64,000 nucleotides of DNA, taken from positions 120,990-184,989 of IMG/VR virus record IMGVR_UViG_3300009095_001812; one strand, given 5' to 3'. The notes beneath the pieces are model-generated. The model searched no databases. It was not told where the DNA came from and worked only from the letters and a program-made list of their open reading frames with translations. Positions 1-64,000 of the stretch are shown piece by piece (within the stretch, counting starts at the first letter, position 1; the number at the start of each line of letters is the position of its first letter). Source of the stretch: a virus. Taxonomy: Duplodnaviria > Heunggongvirae > Uroviricota > Caudoviricetes. Position numbers and translations under genes: made by a program.

Positions 1-273
1 GATGTATTTGTTCTTATCACTGATGAACAACAGAATGCAGGTACGCGACTCATGACTGCTTGGAAAGAGTACCGTTCTAAGGTCAATAAGAATGCTCAGT
101 TGTGGGTTGTTAACGCAACAAACTACCAGTGGCACTCTGCTGATTTTGGAGATTCATCAATCACTGTGTACCAGACCATGACTCCAGCACTATTCAAGAA
201 CCTTGAATATGTTGGTCAGAATCTAACGCAGGCAATTCGCAAGTTCTCGCTCTCTGATTTTGCGAAGAAGTAA
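1..273 (+). CDS. C-terminal fragment of a gene that starts upstream of the window; function unknown (possibly a vWA-like C-terminal domain)
   Basis: Open frame running from the window edge to a stop at 271-273. The tracked ORF at 52..273 is only the internal-Met version. Confidence 0.4.
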   Translation, partial: DVFVLITDEQQNAGTRLMTAWKEYRSKVNKNAQLWVVNATNYQWHSADFGDSSITVYQTMTPALFKNLEYVGQNLTQAIRKFSLSDFAKK

Positions 274-274
274 T

Positions 275-745
275 TCACAAAAGATATCCAAGACCAACCA
301 AAACAATCATGGTCACAACGATCATGATGAAATTGGTCTTGGACTTCTTCATTTCATATTCTTGATTCTTCTTTATTTCTTTTACTGTTAATTCAACAAA
401 AGATAGACGATTTTCAATATCAAGAATTTGTTTTCTGATTTCAGAAGCATCAGTTTTGAGCCGCTGGTGAACATCAAAATGATTATCAACCCATTGTTTT
501 ATGTTAGCAATGTTTTGTTCTACAAGAGCAATTTTAGTAAGAAGGGAAGATGTTCCTCCATCTTTTACAAGATTGGATAAACTCTGTACATTCTCTTTAA
601 GAATGCTCAGTTCGGTCTTCATCGCTACAAAATCGCCCTCGCTTTCTCGTAAGTCAGAAAGCAATGCCTGAGTTAGTTGGGCGGTTGAGTCCAGACCCTC
701 GGCCAGGCGAGCGAGCAATATTTCATTTGTTTTTATCTCTGGCAT
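275..745 (-). CDS. Coiled-coil protein with a C-terminal transmembrane helix (candidate lysis-associated membrane protein)
   Basis: 156-aa ORF. Heptad-like charged repeats, then a hydrophobic C-terminus (IMIVVTMIVLVGLGYLL). Sits near the M15 peptidase gene. Confidence 0.5.
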   Translation of the reverse strand: MPEIKTNEILLARLAEGLDSTAQLTQALLSDLRESEGDFVAMKTELSILKENVQSLSNLVKDGGTSSLLTKIALVEQNIANIKQWVDNHFDVHQRLKTDASEIRKQILDIENRLSFVELTVKEIKKNQEYEMKKSKTNFIMIVVTMIVLVGLGYLL

Positions 746-920
746 TCAAATTACCTATAAGTTGGTTTGTAATTGTACATGTTTCTTTACACAATCTTAT
801 GTTTTTCTTAGTTCTTTTCATACGAAAACTAAGTGCTCGCATAGTGGAATCAAGCTCATTAACTTTATTAGCTAATGCTTCTAATTCTAATAGATTTTTT
901 TCAGAAATTCCGTCAACCAT
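723..920 (-). CDS. Small coiled-coil protein, hypothetical
   Basis: 65-aa ORF on the same strand as its neighbour, overlapping it by 22 nt. Confidence 0.3.
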   Translation of the reverse strand: MVDGISEKNLLELEALANKVNELDSTMRALSFRMKRTKKNIRLCKETCTITNQLIGNLNARDKNK

Positions 921-1138
921 TCACCTGCTCCCTGGGTACTCTACAATCCCAAAATATGCACAACGGAAACATTTAGCAGTCGAGAGCAGCTAATTTTTTT
1001 ATATTATATATAAGTAACGCGAATGAAGTTCATTCATCTTTATTTTAAAATAAAACCATTTCCGGCGTGAGCCGGGCTTGGACTTCAAAATTTCGTTACT
1101 GCTCTATTTGATGTGAATCTCGCGTAGAGCGCCAGAGG

Positions 1139-1194
1139 TCAACGCGCCAAAGATCATTCATCGGTAATTATGAGGTCTTTAATTATTTCGTTTG
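1139..1194 (+). ncRNA. Empty/minimal copy of the leader-trailer RNA element (no tRNA halves inside)
   Basis: Outer stem TCAACG (1139-1144) pairs with CGTTTG (1189-1194). Conserved CGCGCC follows, then the inner stem AAAGATC (1149-1155) pairs with GGTCTTT (1174-1180). The loop starts with the conserved ATTCATC. The same 12-mer AGATCATTCATC occurs at 53203-53220 and 62894-62912 on the minus strand. A trailer-like TTTCGTTACT sits just upstream at 1091-1100. Confidence 0.3.
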
Positions 1195-1214
1195 CTTCCA
1201 TTTCTTAACTGTAG

Positions 1215-1250
1215 AAAAGGCTGGAGAATTTTCTCCAGCCTTTTCGCTTT
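1215..1250. terminator. Bidirectional rho-independent terminator-like hairpin
   Basis: Perfect 10-bp stem GGCTGGAGAA / TTCTCCAGCC (1219-1240) with a 2-nt loop. Preceded by AAAA and followed by TTTTCGCTTTC. Confidence 0.55.
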
Positions 1251-1275
1251 CTAGGGTTTTTTCTACATATCCTAG

Positions 1276-1833
1276 ATGGTTGATTACGTTAAAATCCGTA
1301 AGTTTGCTGATATGTTTGCAGATTTAGCGGGAGTAGAAAGCTTGATATGGGATGGGGCACCTCCTGTATTTAATGAACAAGAGCAGCCTGTTGGTGATTT
1401 TGGATTTCAACAACCACAACAATCACAAGAACAAGTAAAGCTTAGTGAGAAATCAGTGGGAATGATTTCTCAGCTGCAACCTGCATTTCAAGAACAGGCT
1501 GCACAATTGATCTTGAGGGGACTTGCTGCTGGTCTGAGACCAGAAATTGTCGAGGGGTACCGAACCCAGGAGAGACAGGATGAACTGTATGAGCAGGGAA
1601 GATCTCAACCTGGACAGGTAGTTACCAAGGCTAAGAAATCTATGCACACCCAGGGTCTCGCAATTGATATTGCCCAACTTGATGAAAATGGAAATATCAC
1701 TTACGACACAACTCCTGGCTTCTGGGAACAGATGGGTGCTATTGGAAAATCTCTTGGAATGATCTGGGGAGGAGATTGGAAATCCATACAGGATAAACCA
1801 CACTTCCAATATAAGGTAAATAAATTTCAATGA
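1276..1833 (+). CDS. Peptidase M15 family (L-alanyl-D-glutamate / D-Ala-D-Ala carboxypeptidase-like) endolysin candidate
   Basis: 185 aa. Zn-ligand motifs of the VanY/M15 type are recalled (HTQGLAIDI, GGDW...H). Confidence 0.75.
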   Translation: MVDYVKIRKFADMFADLAGVESLIWDGAPPVFNEQEQPVGDFGFQQPQQSQEQVKLSEKSVGMISQLQPAFQEQAAQLILRGLAAGLRPEIVEGYRTQERQDELYEQGRSQPGQVVTKAKKSMHTQGLAIDIAQLDENGNITYDTTPGFWEQMGAIGKSLGMIWGGDWKSIQDKPHFQYKVNKFQ

Positions 1834-2047
1834 AAACAAATTTTTTCTTTCCGTACGATAATGACGATGATTATGAAAAAAAGAAGAGTATGATGGACCG
1901 AACGCACATCTAACAAATGATTGGTATGATGTTATGGGCTCTCTTCATTATGTTTACTGGGAAAAGAACAGCGAATATAGAAAAGAAACTTTATAATACG
2001 ATTCTGTTTTTCGAGTCGAGTTTTAATGCCGGTGCGCCATAAAGTTC

Positions 2048-2602
2048 ATGGCTGAACCAATTATAATTACGTTTGTCGATCTTGAAACAACTGGATTTGA
2101 TTCTAAGAAATGTGAAATCATCGAAGCAGCAGCTGTACGCTCTATTGTTGATGATGGAACTATCAGAATCGTAGCTCGTGCAGATTTCAAAATAGATCCG
2201 GAATATCCAGTGGATCCATTTATTGCAAGAATCAATGGGTACAGAGAAGATGTTTGGTATCAAGAAAGCTCTCAGTTTGAAGATGTAATTGGTGGTATTT
2301 TTGACCTGATGAGGGGAGCTTGGCATGCTGGCTCTAATCCTAGGTTCGATGAAAAATTCCTTATGAGAGCTGCAAAGATGCTTCGCTGGGATTATCCCAA
2401 ACTAGCATCTTATCATCTGTTGGATGTTAGTATGTTAGCTTTTCCTTTATTGGTAAAAGGGGAGGTCGAGAACCTTCGCCAACAGACGATTTGTAAGTAC
2501 TATGACATTCCCGGTGGAGGTCATAGAGCACTTGCCGACGCAATGCAGTGTCTTTATTTGTTTGCCAATATCAATAATTTGAAAGTTGTAACGGAGCAGT
2601 AA
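2048..2602 (+). CDS. DnaQ-like DEDDh 3'-5' exonuclease (DNA pol III epsilon-like)
   Basis: 184 aa. Exo I motif FVDLETTG near the N-terminus, H-x4-D near the C-terminus (GGGHRALADA). Confidence 0.75.
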   Translation: MAEPIIITFVDLETTGFDSKKCEIIEAAAVRSIVDDGTIRIVARADFKIDPEYPVDPFIARINGYREDVWYQESSQFEDVIGGIFDLMRGAWHAGSNPRFDEKFLMRAAKMLRWDYPKLASYHLLDVSMLAFPLLVKGEVENLRQQTICKYYDIPGGGHRALADAMQCLYLFANINNLKVVTEQ

Positions 2603-3372
2603 TGAAAACTCTCGTTTTCGATTTAGATGGAACACTTACCGAATCAAAACAGCCTATCGATCCTGAAATGGCTGCTCTTATCGGGAAGCTTCTTGAAACG
2701 AATAATGTAGCAATTATCTCAGGGGCTTCCTGGGAACAAATTGAAACTCAAGTTCTAAATAGATTAACCATTAAACCAGAACTTCTCAGTTCTCTCTACA
2801 TAATCCCAACATCGGGTTCTGCAATGTACCAAGTTTGGGGTAAGTACGGTTGGGTGAGTGTTTATCAACACAAACTCAACAAAGGATCTGTTGTAGAAAT
2901 TACAAAAGCTTTTGAAAAATCTATTGTTGAAACTGCTTGGAAGCAACCAGAAAAACTCTGGGGAAAGCAGATTGAAAATAGAGAGTCTCAAATCACTTTT
3001 TCTGCTCTTGGGCAAAAAGCACCAATAGAAAAGAAAGAGGTTTTTGATCCTGATGGATCAAAACGCAAAGTCTTATTGGAGTTCTTACAAAAGAAAATTC
3101 CTAATTATGACATCCGTCTTGGAGGTTCTACATCCATCGATATTTCACTTCGAGGAATTAACAAGAAGTATGGTATTGAGGAACTAATCAAGAGACTACA
3201 TATATCAAAAGATAATATCACTTATATTGGTAATGCCATCTACAAAGACGGAAATGATTATGCAGCAATTGAACTTGGACTTAACTTTGTTAAAGTATCA
3301 GATCCAGAGGATACTAAGAAATGGATTTCTTGTGTCCTTGACGGCGAAGTTAAATTAGAGAAAACGGCATAA
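2602..3372 (+). CDS. HAD-IIB hydrolase, phosphomannomutase (eukaryotic PMM)-like
   Basis: 256 aa. N-terminal FDLDGTLT motif. C-terminal GGSTSIDISLRGINKKYG and YIGNAIYKDGNDY resemble PMM motifs. Start overlaps the previous stop (ATGA). Confidence 0.65.
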   Translation: MKTLVFDLDGTLTESKQPIDPEMAALIGKLLETNNVAIISGASWEQIETQVLNRLTIKPELLSSLYIIPTSGSAMYQVWGKYGWVSVYQHKLNKGSVVEITKAFEKSIVETAWKQPEKLWGKQIENRESQITFSALGQKAPIEKKEVFDPDGSKRKVLLEFLQKKIPNYDIRLGGSTSIDISLRGINKKYGIEELIKRLHISKDNITYIGNAIYKDGNDYAAIELGLNFVKVSDPEDTKKWISCVLDGEVKLEKTA

Positions 3373-3438
3373 GGGAAATGGCACATTTTAGTTTACAAGA
3401 TGCTATAACTTTAGCAAAGACTTTTGGGTTGATTCCTC

Positions 3439-3477
3439 CAGACCCTCTCCCAAAGAAAGGTCTGATTATTTTTTTGT
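3439..3477 (+). terminator. Putative terminator hairpin downstream of the PMM-like gene
   Basis: Stem CAGACC / GGTCTG (3439-3464) followed by ATTATTTTTTTG. Confidence 0.4.
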
Positions 3478-3824
3478 TCTTTGGTAATCTTCTGGGCTGC
3501 TTTTATTGGTTTTTGAATTTTTAGTATCCCGGATTTATATTAAAAGTTCGGGATACTAAGAGGTTCTATGAGAGTGGTGAGATGAAACCCTTTATAAAAC
3601 GATGTGGCTCACTCTTAAAAATAAACGAAAGTGTATTATTTAATATGGACACGAAGATTTATGAATCCGTTATTCCTGAAGATTTTGGATGGATGAAGAG
3701 AAGTCCAGCTAGAAGAAGATTGGTCTTTCGATGATCCTGTTAGTGCAATCCGAAAGTTTGAAGAACTCAGGCATGAATCTGAAATGGGCGATGATTACGA
3801 TACCGTTCATTACTTGAAATCAAA

Positions 3825-4328
3825 ATGATTAGAGTAAAATTAACAAAGAATGATCTGAAATTCGCCGAATCAGTTGCGAGGCAAAGGAACCGATCTCAGC
3901 GTGATGGTGACCGCGCCGATGGCAAAGTCATGGAAGATTCCCTGGGTATCGATATCCAGGGCGCAGAGGCCGAGCTAGCAGTAGCAAAGGCACTCAATCT
4001 TCCCTGGGACGGTTCCTTCCTCGAACTGGATAAGTGGTTCGATTGGAGAGATGTGGGCCATGATGTTTCGGGCTTGGAAGTTCGTTCCACCCATCACAAA
4101 AATGGCTCACTCATTCTCCACCCAAAGGACAAAGATGAATCTCCATTCATTCTAGTTCTCACTCATGAAAGACCAATTTTCATTCTGGCTGGATGGTCTT
4201 TTGGTAAAAATGGGAAGGATCCACAGTACTGGAGAGATGTGGGGTACGGAAGACCTTGTTTCTATCTTCCACAAAATAAGTTGTTTGATATGAATGATTT
4301 GAATTTGAAGACACTCAAAACAGCATAA
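3825..4328 (+). CDS. Hypothetical protein
   Basis: 167-aa ORF in a consistent coding-strand block. No recognisable motif. Confidence 0.55.
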   Translation: MIRVKLTKNDLKFAESVARQRNRSQRDGDRADGKVMEDSLGIDIQGAEAELAVAKALNLPWDGSFLELDKWFDWRDVGHDVSGLEVRSTHHKNGSLILHPKDKDESPFILVLTHERPIFILAGWSFGKNGKDPQYWRDVGYGRPCFYLPQNKLFDMNDLNLKTLKTA

Positions 4329-4348
4329 ATTGATATATAGAAAGTAAC

Positions 4349-4424
4349 CGGGGTGTAGCTCAGTCTGGATTAGAGCGTTCGGTTTGGGTCCGAAAGGCCG
4401 GGGGTTCGAATCCCTCTACCCCGA
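4349..4424 (+). tRNA. tRNA-Pro (anticodon UGG)
   Basis: Cloverleaf found manually. Acceptor is CGGGGTG / TACCCCG with a C1-G72 pair typical of bacterial tRNA-Pro. D-arm GCTC..GAGC, anticodon loop TTTGGGT, T-arm GGGGG-TTCGAAT-CCCTC. Confidence 0.85.
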
Positions 4425-4450
4425 CAATATTTATAGTATTTGAACAATTT

Positions 4451-4630
4451 ATGAATGATTACGAACCATGGACATTTGAGGAGTCCCTAAGTTTTACTAG
4501 AGAGTTACAGGGTTTGTTTAAGCCTAAGGTATCCAATATTTGGGCTAGGAAGGGCTCCACTGACGCTAAACACGTCGAGGCCTGGAAGACACCTAAAGGG
4601 CAGAAAGTTGATTTGTTCTTCTTGAGATAA
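4451..4630 (+). CDS. Small hypothetical protein (59 aa)
   Basis: ATG-initiated ORF in the gap after tRNA-Pro. Below the 60-aa cutoff of the ORF track. Confidence 0.35.
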   Translation: MNDYEPWTFEESLSFTRELQGLFKPKVSNIWARKGSTDAKHVEAWKTPKGQKVDLFFLR

Positions 4631-4658
4631 TCTATATGATTATGACGATATAGAAAAT

Positions 4659-4826
4659 GTGGATAAGCAAAAGTGCCCTAAATGTGATAAATCCAACAAG
4701 TGCCAAATAGCCGAAGGTAAAGGTGTTTGCTGGTGCTTCTTCGAGGATGTTCCAAGAGATCTTCTCGAAAAAGATCCTGAAGATAGCTGTTATTGTTTGA
4801 CATGTATAAAACAACACAAGGAGTAA
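4659..4826 (+). CDS. Small Cys-rich (zinc-ribbon-like) protein, about 55 aa
   Basis: GTG-initiated frame encoding CPKCDKSNKC...CWCF...CYCLTC. Ends at TAA 4824-4826, immediately before the RF2-like gene. Confidence 0.35.
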   Translation: MDKQKCPKCDKSNKCQIAEGKGVCWCFFEDVPRDLLEKDPEDSCYCLTCIKQHKE

Positions 4827-4828
4827 AT

Positions 4829-5495
4829 ATGGAATCTGTTGTTATCGAAATACGTGCCGCTGAAGGTGGTGCGGATTCAAAGTTGTTATGTGAAGATATG
4901 CTCGTAGCGTACACGAAAGCGGGAGACCGGGAGCGTCTTTGACTCGGAACTCCTAGAGTCTCAGCCTGGCTTGATAGTTATCTTATTCAAAGGAAGAGGA
5001 GCCAAAGCACTTTTCAAAAACGAAGCTGGAGGTCACCGCTGGCAGCGAATACCTCCAACTGAAAAACGTGGTCGTGTCCAAACATCTACCGTTACTGTTG
5101 CTGTTTTAGATCCAGAACCATCTACAAAATTTGTTCTCGATGAGAAGGATGTTGAAATAAAGACAAGTCGAGGATCGGGTCCTGGTGGTCAACATAGAAA
5201 CAAGACAGATTCATGTGTAACGGTTACACACAAACCAACCAAGACATCCGTTCGCATTGACATGCGAAGTCAACATCAGAGCCGTGAAATGGCTCTGAAA
5301 GTTCTTGCGGCCAAATTGGCAGATGAGTCAACCAATTTGGATCGAAAGGACAGAGAGCGACTTCGCAAGTCTCAGGTGGGATCTGGCATGCGCGGAAATA
5401 AAATCCGCACCTACAGATTCCAAGATGATCAAGTAACTGATCATCGAACGGGAAAGTGTTGGAAACTTAAAAAATGGATACGAGGCGAGTGGTAA
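4829..5495 (+). CDS. prfB: Class I peptide chain release factor homolog (RF2-like, N-terminally truncated) with a programmed +1 frameshift
   Basis: Frame 0 (4829..4939) encodes MESVVIEIRAAEGGADSKLLCEDMLVAYTKAGDRERL, matching the EIRAGAGGDEA region of release factors. It stops at TGA 4940-4942 inside the classic RF2 shift site CTT TGA C, with an SD-like GGGAG 3 nt upstream. The +1 frame (4941..5495) continues with GGHRWQRIPPTEKRGRVQTS, SGPGGQHRNKTDS and the conserved C-terminal RSQVGSGMRGNKIRTY..VTDHR. An AAGGAG RBS sits 7 nt before the ATG. Joined product is about 221 aa. Confidence 0.8.
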
Positions 5496-5767
5496 TGAAA
5501 TACGAAGAATATCAGGTTTGGTTTCACGCTTACAATACAGCAATCTCCTCATTATTGAGAGCTGGAGATGTGGGACCAATCATCAAAAGAAGCGATGAGG
5601 TTCCGAAACTCACCCAAAATGTCATTGGTTGTGCAGATCAAATCGCGGCTCACGCACTAGAGAAGTTCAAGCAAGTAGATAACCCAAAGGTAGAAAACAT
5701 GCCTTCGGAATTTAAAAACATAGTTGAACAGGTAGCAAAAGAGGCGTTGAAACGTGGCAAGCCCTGA
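5474..5767 (+). CDS. Hypothetical protein
   Basis: 97-aa ORF overlapping the end of prfB. Confidence 0.5.
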   Translation: MDTRRVVMKYEEYQVWFHAYNTAISSLLRAGDVGPIIKRSDEVPKLTQNVIGCADQIAAHALEKFKQVDNPKVENMPSEFKNIVEQVAKEALKRGKP

Positions 5768-6350
5768 GCAAGTGCTGCTTGAGTTTTACATTGAAAATTC
5801 ACCAGTTCAACCATTCAATTGGCTTCAGGGACGTTCGTTCTCTGAAGCTTTTGTTATTTGTATTGGTGCCGGCCCGTGGAAGTTCGGTAGAAGAAAAAAG
5901 ATCCAGGGTGAAGCTTTGGAAAAATTGGGTGGAAGAGATATTTCCCAACTACCAAAAACAGAGGCTTGTAAATTTTATCCATTAGATTGGCAAAACAAAT
6001 TTCTTTACAATTCAGTTTGCTTTATAAATAATTACAACATAAGTTTTGAAATTTTTTGCAAAGATTTATACAATAAAGAAAATGTATTCTTTGCACTGAA
6101 CTCAATCTATTCTTTAGCCGGAGCTAAAGGTAATCCCAAGGTTCTATCCTTATTCTGTAGAGATGGACTACAGCTTCCATCTTTCCCTATTGACAGACAC
6201 GTCAAGAGAAAGCTGACTGAGTTAAAATTACCAACAGAAGAGTTCGATATGATTTCTCTCTGCAATTCTGTTGGTATAAACCCTAGAGATGCTGCTGTTG
6301 CATTTGTACGCGCAGCGTCTGATATGGACAATCCCGATTGGAGTATTTGA
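5754..6350 (+). CDS. Hypothetical protein (weak HhH-GPD-like motif)
   Basis: 198 aa. GAKGNPK..IDRHVKRK is faintly reminiscent of HhH-GPD glycosylases. Low confidence. Confidence 0.5.
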   Translation: MASPEQVLLEFYIENSPVQPFNWLQGRSFSEAFVICIGAGPWKFGRRKKIQGEALEKLGGRDISQLPKTEACKFYPLDWQNKFLYNSVCFINNYNISFEIFCKDLYNKENVFFALNSIYSLAGAKGNPKVLSLFCRDGLQLPSFPIDRHVKRKLTELKLPTEEFDMISLCNSVGINPRDAAVAFVRAASDMDNPDWSI

Positions 6351-15469: not shown

Positions 15470-15783
15470 AATTCTTTTTCCTCATTCTGGTATTGAGCCT
15501 TTACAGCTTTACCATATATGATTTTGGTCCAACCATTTTCAAATCCGTGATTGTTTGCAATCATGTATTTTCCATCGGAGTCTATCTTTGTAATTTTGTG
15601 AGCGTCGATATATCGACCCTTTACCTTACAGAAAACGATATCTCCAATTTCATATTTTTCTTGTTTGATAAAAGTAAGCAATGAACCAGATTTGAGAATT
15701 GGAACCATTGAGGATCCAAAACATTTCATTTGCCCAGAGCCGGTTGCTGCTAACTTTATCTTCAAAGCTTCATATTTGCTCAT
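15466..15783 (-). CDS. Hypothetical protein
   Basis: 105-aa ORF. Confidence 0.5.
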   Translation of the reverse strand: MSKYEALKIKLAATGSGQMKCFGSSMVPILKSGSLLTFIKQEKYEIGDIVFCKVKGRYIDAHKITKIDSDGKYMIANNHGFENGWTKIIYGKAVKAQYQNEEKEL

Positions 15784-16307
15784 TACGCAGTTAGACCTAA
15801 AAGCTCTCTCCCTTTATCATGAGAACCTTGTGTAAGCGCCATTGCATCAGGTCCAGCAAGCTTTCTGAACGTTGCTTCGTGAACAAGCTCATCCTTTAGA
15901 ATGCGCTGAAAAATTTTACGAATATCCTCAGGAGCCTCATCATCATCTGCAATGACTTTTATACGCTCAAGGCGCATTGCCTCTGCGTGGGCTCCAACAG
16001 CAGCACCGGTTTCAAAGGAGTCAATGTAAGGAAGAGTTTGTTTCCAATATTTCTCCTCTGCGTTATCAATATCTGGAGTTATGTCCCGAGCAATCAATAA
16101 GTCCAGAACCCAGATAGCATGCATCTGTTCTTGATTAGCAATCACCATCAAATTACGAATTACATTCGTATCATTTGAGTACTGATGAGCAAACCTAGTG
16201 ATTCTATTGGCGGCTGTAATCTCACCCCTGTATTGCTTGACAAGCCAATCTGTTAGAAGAGCTGGGTCTTTCTTTACTTCAGTCCACCATTCTTGTGATG
16301 TCTTCAT
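15783..16307 (-). CDS. Ferritin-like diiron-carboxylate protein (two ExxH motifs)
   Basis: 174 aa. NQEQMHAIW and KDELVHEATF give two ExxH motifs spaced as in ferritin-like or MiaE-like four-helix bundles. Confidence 0.45.
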   Translation of the reverse strand: MKTSQEWWTEVKKDPALLTDWLVKQYRGEITAANRITRFAHQYSNDTNVIRNLMVIANQEQMHAIWVLDLLIARDITPDIDNAEEKYWKQTLPYIDSFETGAAVGAHAEAMRLERIKVIADDDEAPEDIRKIFQRILKDELVHEATFRKLAGPDAMALTQGSHDKGRELLGLTA

Positions 16308-34226: not shown

Positions 34227-34865
34227 TTAGATGCTTCTATTTATGAAGCTTTCGGCATATAGAATATCTTGAACAGAAGATATTTCAAAAGATCTTTTTT
34301 CAGGAATAACAACACACTTAGTATTATCTGTAATAAATTTTTTGTTGTTCAAAAATGATTTAGCTTTGCATATGCTAAATGAACAAAATTTGTAATATAT
34401 CATTCCATCTTCTGGATGGCTGAATATTGGGATGACGTACTTTTCAGGAGATATCAAACAAGCTGATTGAATCGAATCCACCATCTTACAGACACCGACA
34501 ACAGAATCTACATCAGAGTTAGAAAATAGATTGAATCCTTTTTTGATATCATCAATACTTACAAACGGAAATAGAGACGAAAAATAGGAAAACGTATCTC
34601 CGATTTCAAGATCAAAAGTTGATGCGATAGCTATGACGTTATCTATATCATCTTCATATTTCGAATCAAATTTTTGGACTTGAAGATCCGAAACAGCGTA
34701 ATAAACAGAATCGGTGTCCGTAGAGATAATGATGATATCAAAAAGATTGGAGTTCACAACAGTTTGAGTGATCCATCTAATTAGAGGCTTTCCATCTAGG
34801 GAATAAAGATTCTTATTTTCTAGTCTTGAGGCCCCTCTTGCAGGTATTACTGCAACATTTACCAT
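34227..34865 (-). CDS. Cytidylyltransferase (CMP-sugar synthetase; NeuA/KdsB/PseF-like)
   Basis: 212 aa. N-terminal VIPARGASRLENKNL..LDGKPLIRW..IIISTDTD matches the CMP-Kdo / CMP-sialic acid synthetase signature (IPARxxSxxxxxKN). Confidence 0.7.
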   Translation of the reverse strand: MVNVAVIPARGASRLENKNLYSLDGKPLIRWITQTVVNSNLFDIIIISTDTDSVYYAVSDLQVQKFDSKYEDDIDNVIAIASTFDLEIGDTFSYFSSLFPFVSIDDIKKGFNLFSNSDVDSVVGVCKMVDSIQSACLISPEKYVIPIFSHPEDGMIYYKFCSFSICKAKSFLNNKKFITDNTKCVVIPEKRSFEISSVQDILYAESFINRSI

Positions 34866-46146: not shown

Positions 46147-46863
46147 CTATTCCTCGACTTGCTCTAAAAGCACGTCGATATACTCCCGGTTTTCTTGAAA
46201 CCGTGGAATCTCAAGATCGGTTGATCCATTTACCAATACACACCAACCTCTTTTATTGATTGTAGGTATTTGTTCCCAATCTATACTTTTCTCATCAAGA
46301 AGCATCTTCTTCATTTCCTTGCAAGACTTACCCTGCAACATTCTGTGAGAAAAATGAGCCTGTGCCAATGAAGAAACAGAATTTCGTTCAGCGTCTTGTT
46401 GTCTCCAAACAAAATAGTTACACGCCTCTTCTCTTGGTATTACAAAAGCTCTGGAATCAAACATTGCCAATTTAGAAATGACAATCTTTTCATCCATCAT
46501 ATATTTGTTGAAATATGCCGTGGCGATGGATGCAGACACAGATACAATCTTTTGTAACTCTTTTCCAAACCACGCCTGAGTTTCAAAGTTCTCGTAATCA
46601 TTTACTAAAATGGATATTTCATCAGATTGGATGTACGCAAGTTTTGCACCCTGGATGTTTTCCATTAGTCCTTTGGCAGCTTGAGTCATTGCACTTTGAA
46701 TACTCTGATCAAAGGGCCTGGTAAAACCCTTTGTATATGAGTGAAATGCTTTACCATCGCAGCGAATTATCATAGGCATGCGTGGGGTTAGGGCAATTTT
46801 AGAGACGTTCTCATAACTTTTCATTCGGTTGCCTAAAGATGATTTCTCCATTTTACCTCTCAA
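46147..46863 (-). CDS. Thg1-like protein (tRNA-His guanylyltransferase family; 3'-5' polymerase / tRNA 5'-end repair)
   Basis: 238 aa. IRCDGKAFHSYTKGF..PFDQ and YIQSDEISILV align with Thg1 motifs (RxDGRxFH..., QSDEYSF). Downstream YFVWRQQDAERNS resembles the Thg1 WRQ(A/Q)D motif. Confidence 0.75.
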   Translation of the reverse strand: MRGKMEKSSLGNRMKSYENVSKIALTPRMPMIIRCDGKAFHSYTKGFTRPFDQSIQSAMTQAAKGLMENIQGAKLAYIQSDEISILVNDYENFETQAWFGKELQKIVSVSASIATAYFNKYMMDEKIVISKLAMFDSRAFVIPREEACNYFVWRQQDAERNSVSSLAQAHFSHRMLQGKSCKEMKKMLLDEKSIDWEQIPTINKRGWCVLVNGSTDLEIPRFQENREYIDVLLEQVEE

Positions 46864-53054: not shown

Positions 53055-53228
53055 TAGTGACGAAAAAAAGCGAGACCATTTTTTATCGGCGTCCTAGTCC
53101 CCTAGACGAAACTCGCGAGTTGAGAAGATAAAGATCTCAAAATGGGAATTTTAAGTTCCCGGTGCGAGCTGGGAGATTCGAACTCCCGTTTCCGGCTTGA
53201 TGCGATGAATGATCTCTGTCGCGTCACT
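53055..53228 (-). ncRNA. Permuted/split tRNA-like cassette 1: tRNA 3' half upstream of its matching 5' half, enclosed by a conserved leader/trailer
   Basis: Read 5' to 3' on the minus strand. Leader outer-stem strand AGTGACG (revcomp of 53222-53228). Motif CGCGAC-AGAGATCATTCATC. Then GCATCAAGCCGG-AAAC, T-arm GGGAG-TTCGAAT-CTCCC (53171-53187), acceptor 3' strand AGCTCGC (53164-53170), discriminator A, CC. Next is the hairpin GGGAA-CTTAAAA-TTCCC (53144-53160) and a 27-nt spacer. Then the acceptor 5' strand GCGAGTT (53110-53116, 7 bp complementary to AGCTCGC with one G-U), TC, D-arm GTCT-AGGGGACTA-GGAC, G, CCGAT-AAAAAAT. Trailer: GGTCTCGC-TTTTTTT-CGTCACTA (53055-53077). Leader GAGATC pairs with trailer GGTCTC, and leader GTGACG pairs with trailer CGTCAC. 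Confidence 0.5.
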
Positions 53229-53231
53229 TAG

Positions 53232-53631: not shown

Positions 53632-53634
53632 ATG

Positions 53635-53748
53635 GCAACGAAAATGTGTCGACAAATTGCAGAACCAACACTGCGTCCAAAGCTTACGCCCTGGATAGGA
53701 ATCGAACCTATGAATCTAATAAAGATGAAATGTCAACTTGCGCGTTGC
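53635..53748 (-). ncRNA. Degenerate copy of the leader/trailer tRNA-like cassette (T-arm and acceptor-like module only)
   Basis: Leader outer GCAACG (revcomp of 53743-53748), CGCAAG, inner stem strand GTTGAC, conserved ATTTCATC. T-arm ATAGG-TTCGATT-CCTAT plus CCAGGGC-G. Trailer inner stem GTCGAC (53648-53653), ACATTTT, outer CGTTGC (53635-53640). No complementary 5' acceptor strand or D-arm found. Confidence 0.35.
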
Positions 53749-54298
53749 GTAAAGTTTAATTGAGATTCAATTTCTTGAATGAATTTATCACAACAACCAT
53801 CAACTGAGTTGTGATACTTGTACCTGTAGATGAGTGCGGTTCTCTTGTGTAAGGAACATACCATCTCAGTTCTTTCAACCTGAATGAGATCCGCTTCACC
53901 GGTCATCATTATTATATCCAGGTATTAGCTGTCTTTTACAGCGTTCGAGGATAAACCCTCGACCTCTTCTTTTAGTACTTTTGTAACTTCAATACAAATC
54001 AAATGTAATGGAATGAACTTTTGATAAACAGGAATATTTACATGTGGGTTTTCATTACCCCAATAATTATCTTTTAACCATTTTTCAATACCCATTTCAT
54101 TTTCAGTATTCAAAAGAAGTTCGGTTATTGAGTTAGATTTCTTTTTTGAATTCATGTGAAATCTGATTATCTATCACGTACAAACCAATCAAATCTTCAT
54201 ATACACAAGGATCATCTTCTGACATTGATAATGGAGCAACATCAGGAATATTTCCTCGATCTAATTCGGCTTCACAGCAATCAAAAATTGCTCGCCAC

Positions 54299-56131: not shown

Positions 56132-56732
56132 TCACTCATCGAGTGTCTCTGTGTATGCATCACTTAAGTCCGAACCGATGTTTTTTAATCGATCCCAAGT
56201 GAATGGCCTTGGGTTTTCACGCAATAATGATGCTCCAACCGAATCCAGCGCGATGTCGACTGGGAGGAGCGCTGTTTTGACGCTTGCACTGCCTAGTTTT
56301 TTGATTGCTCTGAAAATACTCATATTCTAAAATATCCTTTGCCTTCTCTTTCGATTCTATCTTTTTCTGTGAGTCTAATTAGTTGTTGATCAACTTCTGT
56401 CATAACTGAACTAAGACGTGCAGAAAAACCAATTGAAGATCTTGGAGCATCATGATACTGGTCTGATACGATTGAAATCAGATCAATTTGTTGACGCGAG
56501 CAGAACTGTTCAAACTTTATATCTTTCATTAGGTACTCGATAAACTGAAAGTATCAGGAATGAAATGAAGTGTCCAGCTTGATTCTAAAACCCAAAACAT
56601 TACAGATTTGTTATCCGAATCCATAAAATCAGGAAGTTGTTTTAGATGGTTTTGACACAATGAAAATATGAGCATTGGACTAATACTATCACACGGCGGT
56701 ACGTATGTCAAGCCATTTTTTATAGTGTTCAT
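56132..56732 (-). CDS. Three consecutive small hypothetical ORFs (56132..56323, 56320..56529, 56529..56732)
   Basis: 63, 69 and 67 aa, same strand, with start/stop overlaps. They sit upstream of the rfb operon. Confidence 0.35.
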
Positions 56733-57507
56733 TAGGTCCTAAAATTTCATCAGTTTTAGATGTGTCCAGAACGCTATAACTAGGGCGCAAGGCCTGCCTT
56801 GGAAATTCATTTGTAGAACAAGGCTTGATATTACAGGAAGATCCTACCTTGTGAGAAATGTCTTTTGCAAACTCAAACCACGAACAACTACCTCCATCTG
56901 TAATATGAAAAGTTCCAGTTTGTTTCAGATCGATTAGCTTCAAAGTTCGCTGGGCCAAACCAATTACATGAGTAGGGCGGCCGAACTGATCATTAACTAC
57001 ACTAATTTCATCTTGGGTATTCAAAAGGCGTAACATTGTTTGTAAAAAATTATTACCCCAAGGAGCGTAAACCCAACTTGTCCGAATCAAAAGATAATTA
57101 GCACCAGATGATTGAAGTAATTCCTCACCACGAAGTTTGGAACGCCCATAAGCATTAATGGGACTTCTTTTATCGTCAGTTTTATAAGGTGTCTCTGAAG
57201 ATCCGTCGAAAACATAATCTGTACTAAAATGTACAAACTTTGCACCAACAATAGCGCACTGTTCTGCAAGACTTCCAACTGCATCGCCATTAACGCGAGA
57301 GGCTATATCCTCTTCCTTTTCGGCATCATCAACTTTTGTATATCCTGCGCAGTTGATTACACAATCACCAACATCAATTGGTAATTTTAAATTTTCAAAC
57401 TTACACAAATCAGCTTGGGCTCGATCTAAAAATATAGATTCTTTTGGTAAGAGCTTTGTAAAAGCTTTTCCTAATTGACCACTGGATCCTAGAATAATAA
57501 ATTTCAA
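56689..57507 (-). CDS. rfbD: dTDP-4-dehydrorhamnose reductase
   Basis: 272 aa. N-terminal GxxGxxG Rossmann motif (ILGSSGQLG). Position and size fit RmlD as the last step of the operon. Confidence 0.75.
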   Translation of the reverse strand: MKFIILGSSGQLGKAFTKLLPKESIFLDRAQADLCKFENLKLPIDVGDCVINCAGYTKVDDAEKEEDIASRVNGDAVGSLAEQCAIVGAKFVHFSTDYVFDGSSETPYKTDDKRSPINAYGRSKLRGEELLQSSGANYLLIRTSWVYAPWGNNFLQTMLRLLNTQDEISVVNDQFGRPTHVIGLAQRTLKLIDLKQTGTFHITDGGSCSWFEFAKDISHKVGSSCNIKPCSTNEFPRQALRPSYSVLDTSKTDEILGPNEHYKKWLDIRTAV

Positions 57508-58052
57508 AATATTTCCTTATAAACAGGAAGATTTTTGATATCTTTCAAAAAAGGAGCTTCACTATCTTTTGAAGAAAGTAATGGATTTTCTATAGGCCAT
57601 GGAATATTTAAATCAGGGTCTCTAAATGATATACTCATTTCACAAGATTTTTCATATACATTAGTACATTTATATAAAACATGAGCACTATCACTAAGAA
57701 CACAAAACCCATGAGCAAATCCGGGCGGTACGTAAAATTGATATTTGTTTTGAGAGTTTAGTTCCGTAGCGCAATATCTACCAAATGTTGGAGATCCTAT
57801 TCGAACATCAACTGCAACATCCCAAATACATCCCGTAATAGCCATGACCAATTTTCCCTGATCATTTGGATGTTGTAAATGTAAACCACGTAAAGTTCCA
57901 TTGTATGAATATGAAAGATTATCTTGAACAAATTTTATTTCTTGAGGAAACGATCTTATAGAAAATGTTTCCGTAAAAAATCCACGATAATCAAAAATAA
58001 CACGAGGTTTAATAAGTAAAACCTCAGGTATTTCTTGTTGAACAATTTCCAT
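57504..58052 (-). CDS. rfbC: dTDP-4-dehydrorhamnose 3,5-epimerase
   Basis: 182 aa cupin. RGLHLQ and the His/Lys/Tyr catalytic pattern match RmlC. Confidence 0.75.
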   Translation of the reverse strand: MEIVQQEIPEVLLIKPRVIFDYRGFFTETFSIRSFPQEIKFVQDNLSYSYNGTLRGLHLQHPNDQGKLVMAITGCIWDVAVDVRIGSPTFGRYCATELNSQNKYQFYVPPGFAHGFCVLSDSAHVLYKCTNVYEKSCEMSISFRDPDLNIPWPIENPLLSSKDSEAPFLKDIKNLPVYKEIF

Positions 58053-58925
58053 TTATATTTCCTTTTTTAACAAAGAATTTAAATATTTTGCATAATCTGT
58101 TTTTCCTAAAGAACTTATACTCTTTCGCAGATCGGGTTCGGTTATCCATTTCGAATTGAAAGCAATTTCTTCTGGGCAAGCAATTTGCAAACCCTGCTTT
58201 TCCTGTACCGTTTGTACAAACTGAGATGCTTGTAACATTGCTTCTGGAGAACCTGTATCAAGCCAAGCAATACCCCTACCAAGTTTTACACATAACAAAG
58301 AACCATTGTTGAGATACATTCTGTTCAAATCTGTTATTTCCAATTCACCTCGGGAAGATGGCTGTAGTGTTTTAGCAAATTCAGAAACCCGATGGTCATA
58401 AAAATAAAGACCAGTAACCGCATAATTACTTTTGGGTTGCTTTGGTTTTTCTTCAAGTGATATGACTTGACCCAACTGATCAAATTCAGCAACTCCATAT
58501 ATTTCAGGAGTTGCTGTGTGATATCCAAATATTTTAGCGCCGTGAGTTAGCTTGGCCGCATTCTGTAACTCACCTTGTAAACCATGACCAAAGAAAATGT
58601 TATCACCAAGAACAAGTGAGCACGGTTCGTTATTGATAAATTTTTCACCAATGATAAATGCTTGAGCTATACCATTTGGAGATTGCTGAACTTCCTGTTG
58701 AATATTCAAACCCCACTGAGAACCATCGCCAAGAGTTTTAGAAAAAGACTCTTTATCTTCGGGTGTTGTTATAACAAGTACATCTCTAATTCCGGCAAGC
58801 ATTAGTACGCTAAGCGGATAATAAATCATAGGTTTATCATAAACAGGAATTAGTTGTTTACTAACACCTCTAGTAATTGGAAATAATCTAGATCCTGTAC
58901 CACCAGCTAATATAATTCCCTTCAT
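58053..58925 (-). CDS. rfbA: Glucose-1-phosphate thymidylyltransferase
   Basis: 290 aa. N-terminal [16 protein letters not shown] is the classic G-x-G-T-R-L nucleotidyltransferase signature. RmlA-like throughout. Confidence 0.85.
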
Positions 58926-59977: not shown

Positions 59978-60051
59978 GGTGCAAGATAGAGGATTCGAAC
60001 CTCTGACCACTTCCTAGTCAAAGAAGCACTCTACCGCTGAGTTAATCTTGC
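59977..60051 (-). tRNA. tRNA-Val (anticodon GAC), 3' CCA encoded
   Basis: Perfect acceptor GCAAGAT / ATCTTGC, D-arm ACTC-AGCGGTA-GAGT, anticodon arm CTTCT-TTGACTA-GGAAG, T-arm AGAGG-TTCGAAT-CCTCT, discriminator A then CCA. The CCA overlaps the rfbB start codon. Confidence 0.8.
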
Positions 60052-62603: not shown

Positions 62604-62614
62604 AAATTCTTAGC

Positions 62615-62763: not shown

Positions 62764-62767
62764 AAAT

Positions 62768-62921
62768 AGTAACGAAAAAAGTTGAGACCTCACGCTCCTC
62801 TGCTCTGCCAACTGAGCTACCTTCCCATGAACTGAACCCTAAGGTCCCGGTGGGAAGAGTTAGATTCGAACTAACGACACAAGGTTTTCAATTGATGAAT
62901 GATCTCTAGGCGCGTTACTAA
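62768..62921 (-). ncRNA. Permuted/split tRNA-like cassette 2: tRNA 3' half upstream of its matching 5' half, enclosed by a conserved leader/trailer
   Basis: Read 5' to 3' on the minus strand. Leader outer TAGTAACG (revcomp of 62914-62921). Motif CGCC-TAGAGATCATTCATC, then AATTGAAA-ACCTT-GTGTC. T-arm GTTAG-TTCGAAT-CTAAC (62860-62876), acceptor 3' strand TCTTCCC (62853-62859), discriminator A, CC. Linker GGGACCTTAGGGTTCAGTTCAT. Acceptor 5' strand GGGAAGG (62821-62827, pairs with TCTTCCC), TA, D-arm GCTC-AGTTGGCA-GAGC, A, GAGGA, GCGTGA. Trailer: GGTCTC-AAC-TTTTTT-CGTTACTA (62768-62790). Leader GAGATC pairs with trailer GGTCTC, and TAGTAACG pairs with CGTTACTA. Confidence 0.5.
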
Positions 62922-63920: not shown

Positions 63921-63998
63921 TCCTAAAATAGTACAACGAAAATTGCGCAGACCCTTTGCTCTACCGCTGAGCTATTCGGCCATAAATGCGGCCGAAAT
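63921..63998 (-). ncRNA. Permuted/split tRNA-like cassette 3, truncated by the window edge (5' half and trailer visible)
   Basis: Acceptor 3' strand TTCGGCC (revcomp of 63988-63994), discriminator G, 7-nt linker CATTTAT. Acceptor 5' strand GGCCGAA (63973-63979), TA, D-arm GCTC-AGCGGTA-GAGC, A, AAGGG. Trailer: TCTGCGCAA-TTTT-CGTTGTACTA-TTTTAG (63921-63949). The T-arm and leader should lie beyond position 63998. Confidence 0.4.
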
Positions 63999-64000
63999 AA

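What the first reader, a model, noticed from the sequence alone, without database searches (positions are those of the whole stretch)
1085..1194. Degenerate and tRNA-free copies of the same leader/trailer element, including one on the + strand far from the tRNA region
At 1139-1194 (+ strand) the conserved leader, CGCGCC-AAAGATCATTCATC, pairs directly with a trailer GGTCTTT. Only an 18-nt loop lies between them and there are no tRNA halves, so this is an empty version. A trailer-like TTTCGTTACT plus a CCGGC-GTGA-GCCGG hairpin sit just upstream at 1056-1100. At 53635-53748 another copy retains only a T-arm and an acceptor-like strand. This spread of full, partial and empty copies is what a mobile or duplicating RNA-gene family looks like, or a processing signal that can host different cargo. 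The empty copy lies in the promoter/terminator region upstream of the M15 endolysin gene.
Basis: seen in the sequence. Interest (0 to 1): 0.6.

Follow-up and report, generated by a model that had tools for sequence, protein, structure and literature searches.

The report
Phage Y RNA genes beside Ro60
The "empty leader/trailer" hairpins upstream of the endolysin gene are real members of a multi-copy small-RNA family of giant phages, and they sit just downstream of a phage Ro60 (Rsr) gene, so they are most likely head-less Y RNAs whose tRNA-like relatives punctuate the phage's tRNA arrays.

Summary
Window 1012-1196 (+) holds two tRNA-free copies, E1 (1012-1101) and E2 (1137-1196). They carry the same conserved "stalk" that encloses permuted tRNA-like RNAs at 62767-62920, 53055-53229 and 53633-53750 (-).

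The stalk is a 7-8 bp basal helix (..AACG/CGTT..), an asymmetric loop (5' CG.., 3' ..TTT), a 6-7 bp helix ending GAUC/GGUC with a conserved U.G, then unpaired NTTCATC.

I found about 50 copies in at least 6 giant-phage genomes. Both helices covary (0 of 500 shuffles). A covariance model built without any window sequence finds E2 at 37 bits, E about 3e-9. Heads range from none, through hairpins and a T arm, to a full tRNA mimic.

The decisive context is that window 1-273 is the 3' end of a Ro60/Rsr ortholog, so E1/E2 lie 0.74-0.86 kb downstream on the same strand. Three related phage contigs and one metagenome fragment show the same layout.

Best reading: a divergent, expanded Y RNA (YrlA/YrlB-like) family, with E1/E2 as stalk-only members. 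It is not a promoter or terminator consensus. There is no sign of transposition. It fails Rfam's YrlA threshold and lacks the canonical Rsr motif, so I call it a new variant of a known kind.

The parts
1..273 (+). 3' end (last 90 codons) of a 529-aa Ro60/Rsr ortholog whose start lies left of the window
   Evidence: The translation of 1-273 equals the C-terminus of L188:10473-12062. That protein hits Pfam vWA_Ro60 at 2.5e-14. It matches D. radiodurans Rsr (PDB 2NVO) at E=4.3e-13 over residues 31-487.
1012..1101 (+). E1, a stalk RNA with a non-tRNA head. Basal helix 1013-1019/1094-1100. Loops CGAAT 1020-1024 and AAAATTT 1087-1093. Inner helix 1025-1031/1080-1086. ATTCATC 1032-1038. Head 1039-1079 is an AT hairpin plus CCGGC-GTGA-GCCGG.
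   Evidence: A sigma-70-like promoter at 980-1007 places a possible start at the foot of the helix.
1102..1136 (+). Linker with a 6-7 bp hairpin (GCTCTA...TAGAGC) between E1 and E2
   Evidence: Fold of 1008-1262.
1137..1196 (+). E2, the 'empty' stalk RNA. Basal helix 1138-1144/1189-1195 with one C.U mismatch. Loops CGCC 1145-1148 and AATTATTT 1181-1188. Inner helix AAAGATC 1149-1155 / GGTCTTT 1174-1180. ATTCATC 1156-1162. 11-nt cap 1163-1173.
   Evidence: Independent model R2 gives 37.2 bits, E=3.5e-9.
1214..1250 (+). Strong hairpin followed by TTTTCGCTTT. It is a terminator-like end of the E1-E2 unit and lies 26-62 nt before the M15 endolysin start.
   Evidence: A 14-bp stem in the fold, with sequence. 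The endolysin is Pfam VanY/Peptidase_M15_4.
53633..53750 (-). Copy C, a stalk with a T-arm-only head (no D arm). It ends 2 nt before tRNA-Glu(ctc). It is a somewhat eroded member of a conserved T-arm subtype.
   Evidence: Alignment with four relatives, two of which lie next to rsr (A3).
53055..53229 (-). Copy B, a stalk with a full permuted tRNA-like head: T arm, 7-bp acceptor stem plus ACC, inserted hairpins, D arm. It starts 2 nt after the initiator-type tRNA-Met.
   Evidence: (z=-2.6).
62767..62920 (-). Copy A, a stalk with a full tRNA-like head. It ends 5 nt before tRNA-Arg(acg).
   Evidence: Rfam YrlA model positions 23-87 match at 29.7 bits, with local E=6e-5. The ortholog L019:1211-1371 carries compensatory changes.
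63931..64000 (-). Copy F, the 3' part of a sixth copy cut by the window end: closed acceptor-like stem, D arm, GGTCTG, CGCAATTTT, CGTTGTAC.
   Evidence: Trailer profile hit and sequence. The full copy is L186:9697-9806.

Best explanation
E1 and E2 are stalk-only (head-less or hairpin-headed) members of a phage-specific Y RNA family that partners the phage-encoded Ro60/Rsr protein.

The conserved 'leader/trailer' is the Y RNA stem. The 5' and 3' ends pair into a basal helix. An asymmetric internal loop and a second helix follow, with invariant unpaired nucleotides: CG.., ..UUU, the U.G wobble in GAUC/GGUC, and NUUCAUC. These form the protein-recognition module.

Most family members carry a circularly permuted tRNA mimic on top (T arm, acceptor-like stem, D arm), as in YrlA. 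Others carry only a T arm, as described for YrlB, or a hairpin, or nothing.

In the tRNA arrays the stalks sit 0-2 nt after the upstream tRNA and 2-11 nt before the next one. RNase Z-type and RNase P cleavage of the neighbours would therefore release each Y RNA with paired, protected ends.

E1-E2 are the rsr-adjacent copies. They appear to have their own promoter and terminator.

Shown: family membership, RNA-level covariation, tRNA mimicry of the heads, and adjacency to and co-occurrence with rsr.

Inferred: Ro60 binding, processing by RNase P and RNase Z, and a role in tRNA/RNA quality control.
For: (1) rsr adjacency. Window 1-273 is the end of a 529-aa protein that matches Rsr (PDB 2NVO, E=4e-13, nearly full length) and Pfam vWA_Ro60. 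E1 starts 739 nt and E2 864 nt after its stop codon, on the same strand. Chen et al. 2014 (PMC4201824) found bacterial and phage Y RNAs within 4 kb of rsr on the same strand.

(2) Same layout in relatives. Stalk RNAs lie 1.0-1.6 kb downstream of rsr on the same strand in L189 (2 copies), L190 (3) and L192 (3). In the metagenome fragment L184 the same arrangement holds. The only four IMG/VR contigs with a relative of this Ro60 are three stalk-bearing contigs plus a contig from the same sample as the fourth.

(3) The heads are YrlA-like. The Rfam YrlA model hits copy A (29.7 bits), L019:3380-3462 (31.3 bits) and L161:692-820 (37.8 bits, full model length). YrlA's architecture is the same: helix, 5x8 asymmetric loop, helix, short stem, T arm, acceptor-like stem, D arm.

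(4) The stalk is a conserved RNA structure. 93-95% of cells are paired, against 24-43% in slid controls. 56-72 cells have double changes, with 0 of 500 shuffles reaching that. G.U pairs number 31 against 7 A.C. All copies lie on the transcribed strand.

(5) Stalk-only copies recur. At least 12 of 46 distinct copies have caps of 22 nt or less, in at least 5 genomes. They have different, compensated inner helices. One more lies in this same genome inside the tRNA array (L186:5545-5614).

(6) Independent detection of E2 by a model that contains no window sequence.

(7) Copies are flush with tRNA ends in 15 of 20 upstream and 17 of 25 downstream cases.

(8) Neighbouring genes include a CCA-adding-type enzyme, two RNase T-like exonucleases and a Thg1-like protein.
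Against: - The canonical Rsr-binding motif GNCGAAN0-1G is absent from every stalk; E1's CGCGAATG is one base off.
- All Rfam YrlA scores are far below the gathering score of 69 bits.
- There is no binding or expression data.
- The Ro60-bearing genomes are related (57-78% identity), so co-occurrence is not phylogenetically independent.
- The closest Ro60 relative (L191) has no stalk RNA downstream of rsr, only a trailer-like relic.
- Most copies lie tens of kb from rsr inside tRNA arrays. That is unlike described Y RNAs and would also fit a pure processing role.
- An opposite-strand ORF (275-745) separates rsr from E1.
- E2 alone is thermodynamically unremarkable.
Confidence: 0.68

Rival explanations
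1. Ro60-independent punctuation or processing stalk. The double helix with its internal loop would be a cleavage or insulation signal, for example for RNase III or RNase E as in phage T7 RNase III sites or rRNA processing stalks. It would separate tRNAs and mRNAs in long transcripts. Heads would be optional passengers, and E1/E2 would process the transcript entering the endolysin operon.
For: Stalks sit flush between tRNAs. The two roughly 7-bp helices with an asymmetric loop have the size and shape of T7-type RNase III sites (own knowledge). Empty stalks act as bare spacers between tRNAs in L152, L184, L019 and L186. The U-rich 3' loop is a plausible RNase E site. E1-E2 lie directly upstream of the endolysin operon.
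Against: RNase III needs no specific unpaired sequence, yet about 20 unpaired or wobble positions are invariant across about 50 copies. This model does not explain the tRNA-mimic heads kept by compensatory change. It also does not explain the repeated placement next to rsr.
Confidence: 0.15
2. E1, E2 and copy C are decaying pseudogenes. They would be former tRNA-like Y RNA or tRNA cassettes that lost their heads and now have no function of their own.
For: Copy C lacks an 8-nt segment and the closing helix that its four relatives keep. E2's basal helix has a C.U mismatch. The syntenic locus in L184, L190 and L192 still holds tRNAs that the window locus lacks. L191 retains only a trailer relic.
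Against: The stalk consensus of E1 and E2 is intact: E1 has 7+7 perfect pairs and E2 scores 37 bits. Head-less copies are found in at least 5 genomes with covarying helices. A decaying copy would lose the invariant loops first.
Confidence: 0.1
3. DNA-level recombination sites or a mobile cassette. The inverted repeats ..AAC(G)/(C)GTT.., with an unpaired spacer, a second box and a variable terminal structure, resemble integron attC sites or MITE ends. They would shuffle tRNA cassettes.
For: The architecture (R box, spacer, L box, variable terminal structure of 11-129 nt) and the AAC/GTT ends recall attC sites (own knowledge). The order of tRNAs and stalks differs between related genomes.
Against: There are no target-site duplications. 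No tyrosine recombinase or transposase appears among the 60 window ORFs scanned. There is a strong G.U over A.C bias on the sense strand, and the conserved U.G would be an A.C mismatch in the other strand. The heads are RNA-level tRNA mimics.
Confidence: 0.03
4. Circularly permuted tRNA genes, as in Cyanidioschyzon. Leader and trailer would pair to direct cleavage and ligation into a circular intermediate that matures into a decoding tRNA. The empty copies would be spent processing signals.
For: Gene order is 3' half then 5' half. Copies A and B have 7-bp acceptor stems followed by ACC. Sequences resembling anticodon loops follow UUCAUC in two L019 copies (CUGUAAA and CUCAUAA).
Against: There is no bulge-helix-bulge motif. 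Anticodon stems cannot be reconstituted in copy B or L019:900-1050. Many heads have the acceptor stem closed by a tetraloop and no CCA. No RNA ligase was found in the window. Empty copies make no sense under this model.
Confidence: 0.02
5. A shared promoter or terminator consensus of this phage family.
For: A T-run follows the inner helix. E1 begins at a predicted promoter.
Against: Both helices covary with many double substitutions. The 3' strand of the basal helix lies beyond the T-run. The helices enclose up to 129 nt. The scan found no terminator-like sites at the copies.
Confidence: 0.02

Closest known systems
YrlA / YrlB bacterial Y RNAs (Rfam RF02553; Chen et al. 2014, PMC4201824)
   Same: Both are encoded just downstream of rsr on the same strand. 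The 5' and 3' ends pair into a stem with an asymmetric internal loop. The head is a permuted tRNA mimic (T arm, acceptor-like stem, D arm). Some heads have a 7-bp acceptor stem like M. smegmatis YrlA, which RNase P cleaves and which receives CCA. A shorter partner RNA keeps only a T arm, as YrlB does. Such RNAs are known from Ro60-encoding phages.
   Different: The stalk sequence is different: there is no GNCGAAN0-1G motif, and the invariant elements are AACG|CG, UUU|CGUU, GAUC/GGUC and UUCAUC. An extra basal helix is present. Scores of 30-38 bits fall well below the gathering score of 69. There are at least 12 copies in this genome rather than 1-4. Most copies are embedded flush between tRNA genes far from rsr. 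Fully head-less versions exist.
Metazoan and Deinococcus Y RNAs (Ro60-binding lower stem plus variable loop)
   Same: Modular design, with a conserved Ro-binding stem formed by the RNA ends and a variable effector module. Several paralogous Y RNAs occur per genome. The helix contains a GGUC strand with a G.U wobble next to unpaired nucleotides (own knowledge of hY RNA sequences).
   Different: The wobble position and flanking sequence differ. There is no bulged C or CGA. The resemblance is recalled from memory and was not tested.
Phage T7 RNase III processing sites / rRNA processing stalks
   Same: Hairpins of about 60 nt made of two helices and an asymmetric internal loop. They occur repeatedly between genes and share sequence among copies.
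   Different: Those sites show no association with Ro60 and carry no tRNA-mimic heads. Their unpaired bases are not invariant across genomes.
Circularly permuted tRNA genes (Cyanidioschyzon merolae) and two-piece tmRNA genes
   Same: The T arm and 3' acceptor strand precede the 5' acceptor strand and D arm in the gene.
   Different: No BHB motif, no restorable anticodon arm, no tag reading frame. ARAGORN calls none of them.

Membership tests
Bacterial Y RNA (YrlA/YrlB type) | Encoded within about 4 kb of a Ro60/Rsr gene, on the same strand | tested here: met
   rsr ends at window 273(+). E1 is at 1012 and E2 at 1137 on the + strand. The layout is the same in L189, L190, L192 and L184. It is not met in L191.
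Bacterial Y RNA (YrlA/YrlB type) | Long stem formed by the 5' and 3' ends, interrupted by an internal loop | tested here: met
   Two covarying helices with a 4-7 x 6-9 nt loop. The architecture is the same as the Rfam YrlA consensus.
Bacterial Y RNA (YrlA/YrlB type) | Rsr-binding motif GNCGAAN0-1G on the 5' strand | tested here: not met
   The motif is absent from all aligned stalks. E1 has CGCGAATG, one base off. A different invariant set is present instead.
Bacterial Y RNA (YrlA/YrlB type) | tRNA-like module (T arm, acceptor-like stem, D arm) | tested here: not met
   For E1 and E2, the subject of this finding, there is no T or D arm. It is met for copies A, B and F and partly for C, which has a T arm only.
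Bacterial Y RNA (YrlA/YrlB type) | Score at or above the Rfam RF02553 gathering threshold (69 bits) | tested here: not met
   The best scores are 29.7 bits (copy A), 31.3 bits (L019) and 37.8 bits (L161). There is no hit at E1 or E2.
Bacterial Y RNA (YrlA/YrlB type) | Physical association with Ro60/Rsr | not testable with these tools
   This needs RIP/CLIP or EMSA.
Promoter / intrinsic terminator consensus | Conserved sequence without compensatory base-pair changes; short GC stem directly followed by a T-run | tested here: not met
   56-72 cells have double changes, with 0 of 500 shuffles reaching that. The scans call no terminator at the copies.
Transposable element / MITE | Target-site duplications and arbitrary insertion sites | tested here: not met
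   The longest flank repeat averages 3.5 nt against a control of 3.4 +/- 0.1. Copies are flush with tRNA ends.
Integron attC site | Partner tyrosine recombinase; structure formed by single-stranded DNA | tested here: inconclusive
   No recombinase is found in the 60 ORFs scanned in the window, but the 446-kb genome is mostly unseen. The G.U over A.C bias favours RNA.
Permuted tRNA gene (C. merolae type) | BHB motif formed by leader and trailer; anticodon arm restored after ligation | tested here: not met
   No 3-nt bulges flank a 4-bp helix, and the anticodon stems do not pair in several copies (read from the sequences).
RNase III processing stalk (T7 type) | About 20 bp-equivalents of helix with an internal loop; cleavage by RNase III | not testable with these tools
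   The shape is compatible. Cleavage cannot be tested.

The most novel reading that the evidence does not exclude
Giant phages may have turned the Y RNA into a co-transcribed, co-processed component of their tRNA arrays. A dozen or more Ro60 cofactors per genome would be released by RNase P and RNase Z together with the tRNAs. Each would carry a different tRNA-mimic head. Heads with a 7-bp acceptor stem plus ACC would be cut by RNase P, receive CCA and perhaps be charged. Ro60 would thereby become a tRNA-specific surveillance, repair or decoy machine during infection. The head-less stalks (E2 type) would act as competitors that tune how much Ro60 is available.
Probability: 0.15. Interest if true: 0.85.

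Novelty: new variant of a known kind. Interest (0 to 1): 0.6.

Why it matters
The function of bacterial Ro60 and of the tRNA-like domain of Y RNAs is still unsettled. Here a clade of 170-460 kb phages carries a Ro60 gene and a greatly expanded Y-RNA-like family. The members share one invariant stalk and differ in their heads, and they are physically interleaved with tRNA genes. This ties Ro60/Y RNA biology directly to tRNA supply and repair during infection.

It also offers natural 'domain-deletion' variants (stalk only, T arm only, full tRNA mimic) for binding and function tests. It defines an RNA motif that Rfam 15 does not detect. In practice, these elements explain much of the 'non-coding spacer' in giant-phage tRNA arrays, and they could be mis-called as split or permuted tRNAs.

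Tried and rejected
- Megablast of window 1-6000 against GenBank phages found nothing. tblastn of a 523-aa ATPase found only relatives at 39% identity or less.
- The endolysin has no close relative in IMG/VR, so its upstream region could not be compared directly.
- The first collection patterns returned mostly chance coding hits. Only L019 was real.
- A purely structural scanner was useless: 46 hits per shuffled window.
- Stalk-only covariance models cannot see copies with large heads. The weak hit at 34307-34350 is an AT-rich coding chance match.
- The genome-contig scan for the empty-copy pattern gave two hits without helices, so the exact pattern is absent from 185,579 species genomes.
- Walking beyond the window is limited to window proteins. 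The look-up of ORF 52-273 failed because it is a gene fragment.
- A Ro60 search of the ten largest window ORFs was negative, because the gene lies at and just beyond the window edge.
- I considered and set aside group I permuted intron-exon, hammerhead/HDV-type ribozymes (no Rfam hit at E<=10), tmRNA, BHB splicing, K-turn and T-loop readings of UUCAUC.
- I could not align the stalk convincingly to the metazoan Ro-binding helix.

Full report
**1. What is at the coordinates**

- CAACGCGCC-AAAGATCATTCATC lies at 1140-1162.
- GGTCTTT lies at 1174-1180, with 18 nt and no tRNA parts between the two helix strands.
- TTTCGTTACT is at 1091-1100 and the CCGGC-GTGA-GCCGG hairpin at 1062-1075.

The upstream 'trailer plus hairpin' is in fact the 3' half of a second complete element. 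Its leader is AAGTAACGCGAATGAAGTTCATTCATC at 1012-1038. So two tRNA-free copies stand in tandem: E1 (1012-1101) and E2 (1137-1196). They are separated by a small hairpin and followed by a 14-bp terminator-like hairpin at 1214-1250. The 255-nt block folds exactly this way, with z=-5.1. A sigma-70-like promoter at 980-1007 would start transcription at the foot of E1.

**2. Anatomy of the shared module (the 'stalk')**

On the RNA strand, every copy has these parts in order:
- a 7-8 bp basal helix ending ..AACG, paired with CGTT..;
- an asymmetric internal loop, with 4-7 nt beginning CG on the 5' side and 6-9 nt ending TTT on the 3' side;
- a 6-7 bp inner helix whose top is GAUC/GGUC, with a conserved U.G wobble;
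- an unpaired N-TTCATC;
- the head.

In the window the same stalk encloses four other heads.
- Copy A (62767-62920, -) and copy B (53055-53229, -) hold a circularly permuted tRNA-like head: T arm, 3' acceptor strand plus ACC, small hairpin, 5' acceptor strand, D arm.
- Copy C (53633-53750, -) holds a T-arm-only head.
- Copy F (63931-64000, -) is a sixth copy cut by the window end.

**3. More than chance**

- The simple regex CGCG-N8-14-TTCATC hits only the five complete copies in 64 kb on both strands.
- A leader profile gives five hits at E<=5e-4, and the next is at E=2.2.
- Model R2, built from 41 stalks from other contigs only, finds E2 at 37.2 bits with E=3.5e-9.
- E2 on its own is not unusually stable (z=0.06). 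The evidence for it is comparative.

**4. The family elsewhere**

Pattern scans of IMG/VR and JGI metagenomes, followed by parsing, gave 46 distinct copies. Seven more lie in the 10 kb beyond the window's right end.

All the assembled IMG/VR and source contigs that carry the family are giant-phage sized:
- the source contig ERZ27256727 k141_1871243, 446 kb;
- IMG/VR contigs of 169, 219, 336 and 459 kb.

The remaining loci are short metagenome fragments of about 1-6 kb.

The exact empty-copy pattern is absent from 185,579 species-representative cellular genomes. The only two hits there lack the helices.

Head length forms a spectrum:
- 11-22 nt ('empty', at least 12 copies in at least 5 genomes);
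- 29-45 nt (hairpins);
- 68-92 nt (T arm plus hairpins);
- 99-129 nt (full tRNA mimic).

This genome has another empty copy inside its tRNA array, at L186:5545-5614.

**5. It is an RNA structure**

I tested two stalk alignments, A1 (26 copies) and A4 (41 copies, none from the window).
- 93-95% of cells form standard pairs, against 24-43% when partners are slid.
- 9 of 14 pairs (A1) and 7 of 12 pairs (A4) show changes on both sides.
- 56-72 cells have double changes, with 0 of 500 shuffles reaching this.
- G.U pairs outnumber A.C mismatches 31 to 7 on the sense strand, although my parser accepted G.U as a pair.
- All copies lie on the strand of the adjacent tRNAs or genes.

The longest direct repeats in the flanks are no longer than in permuted controls, 3.5 vs 3.4 nt. 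So there is no trace of transposition.

**6. Position in the arrays**

The basal helix starts 0-2 nt after the annotated 3' end of the upstream tRNA in 15 of 20 cases. It ends 2-11 nt before +1 of the downstream tRNA in 17 of 25 cases. It follows, as an inference, that cleavage of the neighbouring tRNAs by RNase P and an RNase Z-type activity would release each stalk RNA with base-paired ends.

**7. What the heads resemble**

The only Rfam 15 family that matches is YrlA (Y RNA-like, RF02553).
- Copy A: 29.7 bits over model positions 23-87.
- L019:3380-3462: 31.3 bits.
- L161:692-820: 37.8 bits over the whole model.

All are below the gathering score of 69. The YrlA consensus has the same design: outer helix, 5x8 asymmetric loop, 7-bp helix, short stem, T arm, closed acceptor-like stem, D arm.

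In the full-length alignment, YrlA's Rsr-binding helix and its AUGCu / aAaAcUuG loops fall on our inner helix, on AUUCAUC, and on an A-rich tract that many copies carry before GGUC. Under that alignment the AACG/CGTT helix is an additional basal helix.

Orthologous heads keep their arms through compensatory changes, as seen for copy A versus L019:1211-1371. The T-arm-only type of copy C is conserved in four relatives, although C itself has lost an 8-nt segment and the closing helix.

**8. The decisive context**

A look-up of the ORF at 275-745 returned 10 kb beyond the window's left end. The next gene (529 aa) carries Pfam vWA_Ro60 (2.5e-14). It aligns with D. radiodurans Rsr (PDB 2NVO) over residues 31-487 at E=4.3e-13, and with human and Xenopus Ro60 in the vWA domain. 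Window 1-273 encodes its last 90 residues.

E1 and E2 therefore start 739 and 864 nt downstream of the rsr stop codon, on the same strand. This is the signature by which Chen et al. 2014 identified Y RNAs in 254 bacteria and 22 phages, namely within 4 kb and on the same strand (PMC4201824).

A search of IMG/VR with this Ro60 found exactly four contigs. Three are stalk-bearing contigs. The fourth comes from the same sample as the remaining stalk-bearing contig.
- In L189, L190 and L192, two to three stalk RNAs lie 1.0-1.6 kb downstream of rsr on the same strand, mixed with one or two tRNAs.
- Metagenome fragment L184 shows the same synteny as the window's left end: rsr end, a homolog of ORF 275-745, then four stalks with tRNAs.
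- L191, the closest Ro60 relative, has only a trailer-like relic there.

Near rsr lie a CCA-adding-type nucleotidyltransferase and RNase T-like exonucleases. The window also encodes a Thg1-like protein.

**9. Interpretation**

The leader/trailer module is best read as the stem of a divergent, phage-specific Y RNA family. E1 and E2 are its rsr-adjacent members, head-less or hairpin-headed, comparable in role to YrlB or to minimal metazoan Y RNAs. Copies A, B and F are YrlA-like tRNA mimics. Copy C is a T-arm-only form.

By analogy with M. smegmatis YrlA, which has a 7-bp acceptor stem, is cleaved by RNase P and receives CCA, copies A and B (7 bp plus ACC) may be nicked and CCA-tailed.

Binding to Ro60, processing, and any role in tRNA quality control are inferences.

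[quoted passage not shown] I therefore file it as a new variant of a known kind, not as a member of RF02553.

**10. Rivals**

- A Ro60-independent processing stalk remains possible (0.15). It explains neither the invariant unpaired bases, nor the conserved heads, nor the rsr linkage.
- Pseudogene status of E1, E2 and C (0.10) is argued against by the intact consensus and by recurrent, covarying head-less copies.
- An attC-like or mobile site, a permuted tRNA gene, and a promoter/terminator consensus are each unlikely, for the reasons given in the rival section.

I found nothing in the searchable literature on Y RNAs interleaved with phage tRNA arrays. One review notes only that a small subset of jumbo phages carry a TROVE protein with a tRNA-like partner (PMC7824862).

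Noticed in passing
window 1-273 (+), continuing left of the window (L188:10473-12062): The window begins inside a Ro60/Rsr ortholog (529 aa; vWA_Ro60; matches PDB 2NVO). Beyond it lie an RNase T-like gene, a LAGLIDADG-type ORF, a CCA-adding-type nucleotidyltransferase with an HD domain, and an intein-containing ThyX.
   Followed up: yes
window 63931-64000 (-); full copy L186:9697-9806: A sixth stalk RNA is cut by the window's right end. The next 10 kb of the same genome hold six further copies and 16 more tRNAs, so the tRNA/Y-RNA region spans more than 60 kb of a 446-kb genome.
   Followed up: yes
window ~38152-38918 (-): A tRNA-Leu(UAA) gene is split in the anticodon loop by a group I intron (Rfam Intron_gpI 26.3 bits, below the gathering score of 50; AAGATATAGT core). 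An HNH endonuclease ORF (38320-38790) lies on the opposite strand inside it. ARAGORN and the Rfam gathering scan both miss this tRNA.
   Followed up: partly
window 42358-42434 (-) and 4971-5495 (+): A tRNA with anticodon CTA (amber-suppressor type, called 'Pyl' by ARAGORN) and a short RF-1/PCRF-domain protein are present. This hints at stop-codon recoding or ribosome-rescue functions in this phage.
   Followed up: no
window 46147-46863 (-), 2048-2602 (+), 15783-16307 (-): tRNA-centred enzymes are encoded here: a Thg1-like 3'-5' nucleotidyltransferase, an RNase T-like exonuclease just downstream of the endolysin, and a MiaE/rubrerythrin-like protein.
   Followed up: no
window 62614-62681 (-): An extra tRNA is found by Rfam (40.3 bits) but not by ARAGORN, directly after tRNA-Arg(acg). 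The pair gives a false YrlA hit as a 'dimeric tRNA' (24.1 bits).
   Followed up: partly
window 56689-60010 (-): A complete dTDP-rhamnose pathway (RmlA, RmlB, RmlC, RmlD) is embedded in the tRNA region. Three HNH endonuclease ORFs (38320-38790, 61035-61604, 63053-63736) are scattered among the tRNAs.
   Followed up: no
L152:4296-4380 and 4664-4747; L184:636-716 and 245-315: Unannotated tRNA-like sequences lie between empty stalks in related phages. ARAGORN does not call them. They may be unusual or degenerate tRNAs.
   Followed up: no
many copies, 2-4 nt before the GGUC strand (e.g. window 53075-53081, L019:3350-3500): An A-rich tract (AAAAA) on the 3' side opposite UUCAUC recurs in most headed copies and in some empty ones. 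It aligns with the aAaAcUuG loop of the YrlA consensus. Its role is unknown.
   Followed up: partly
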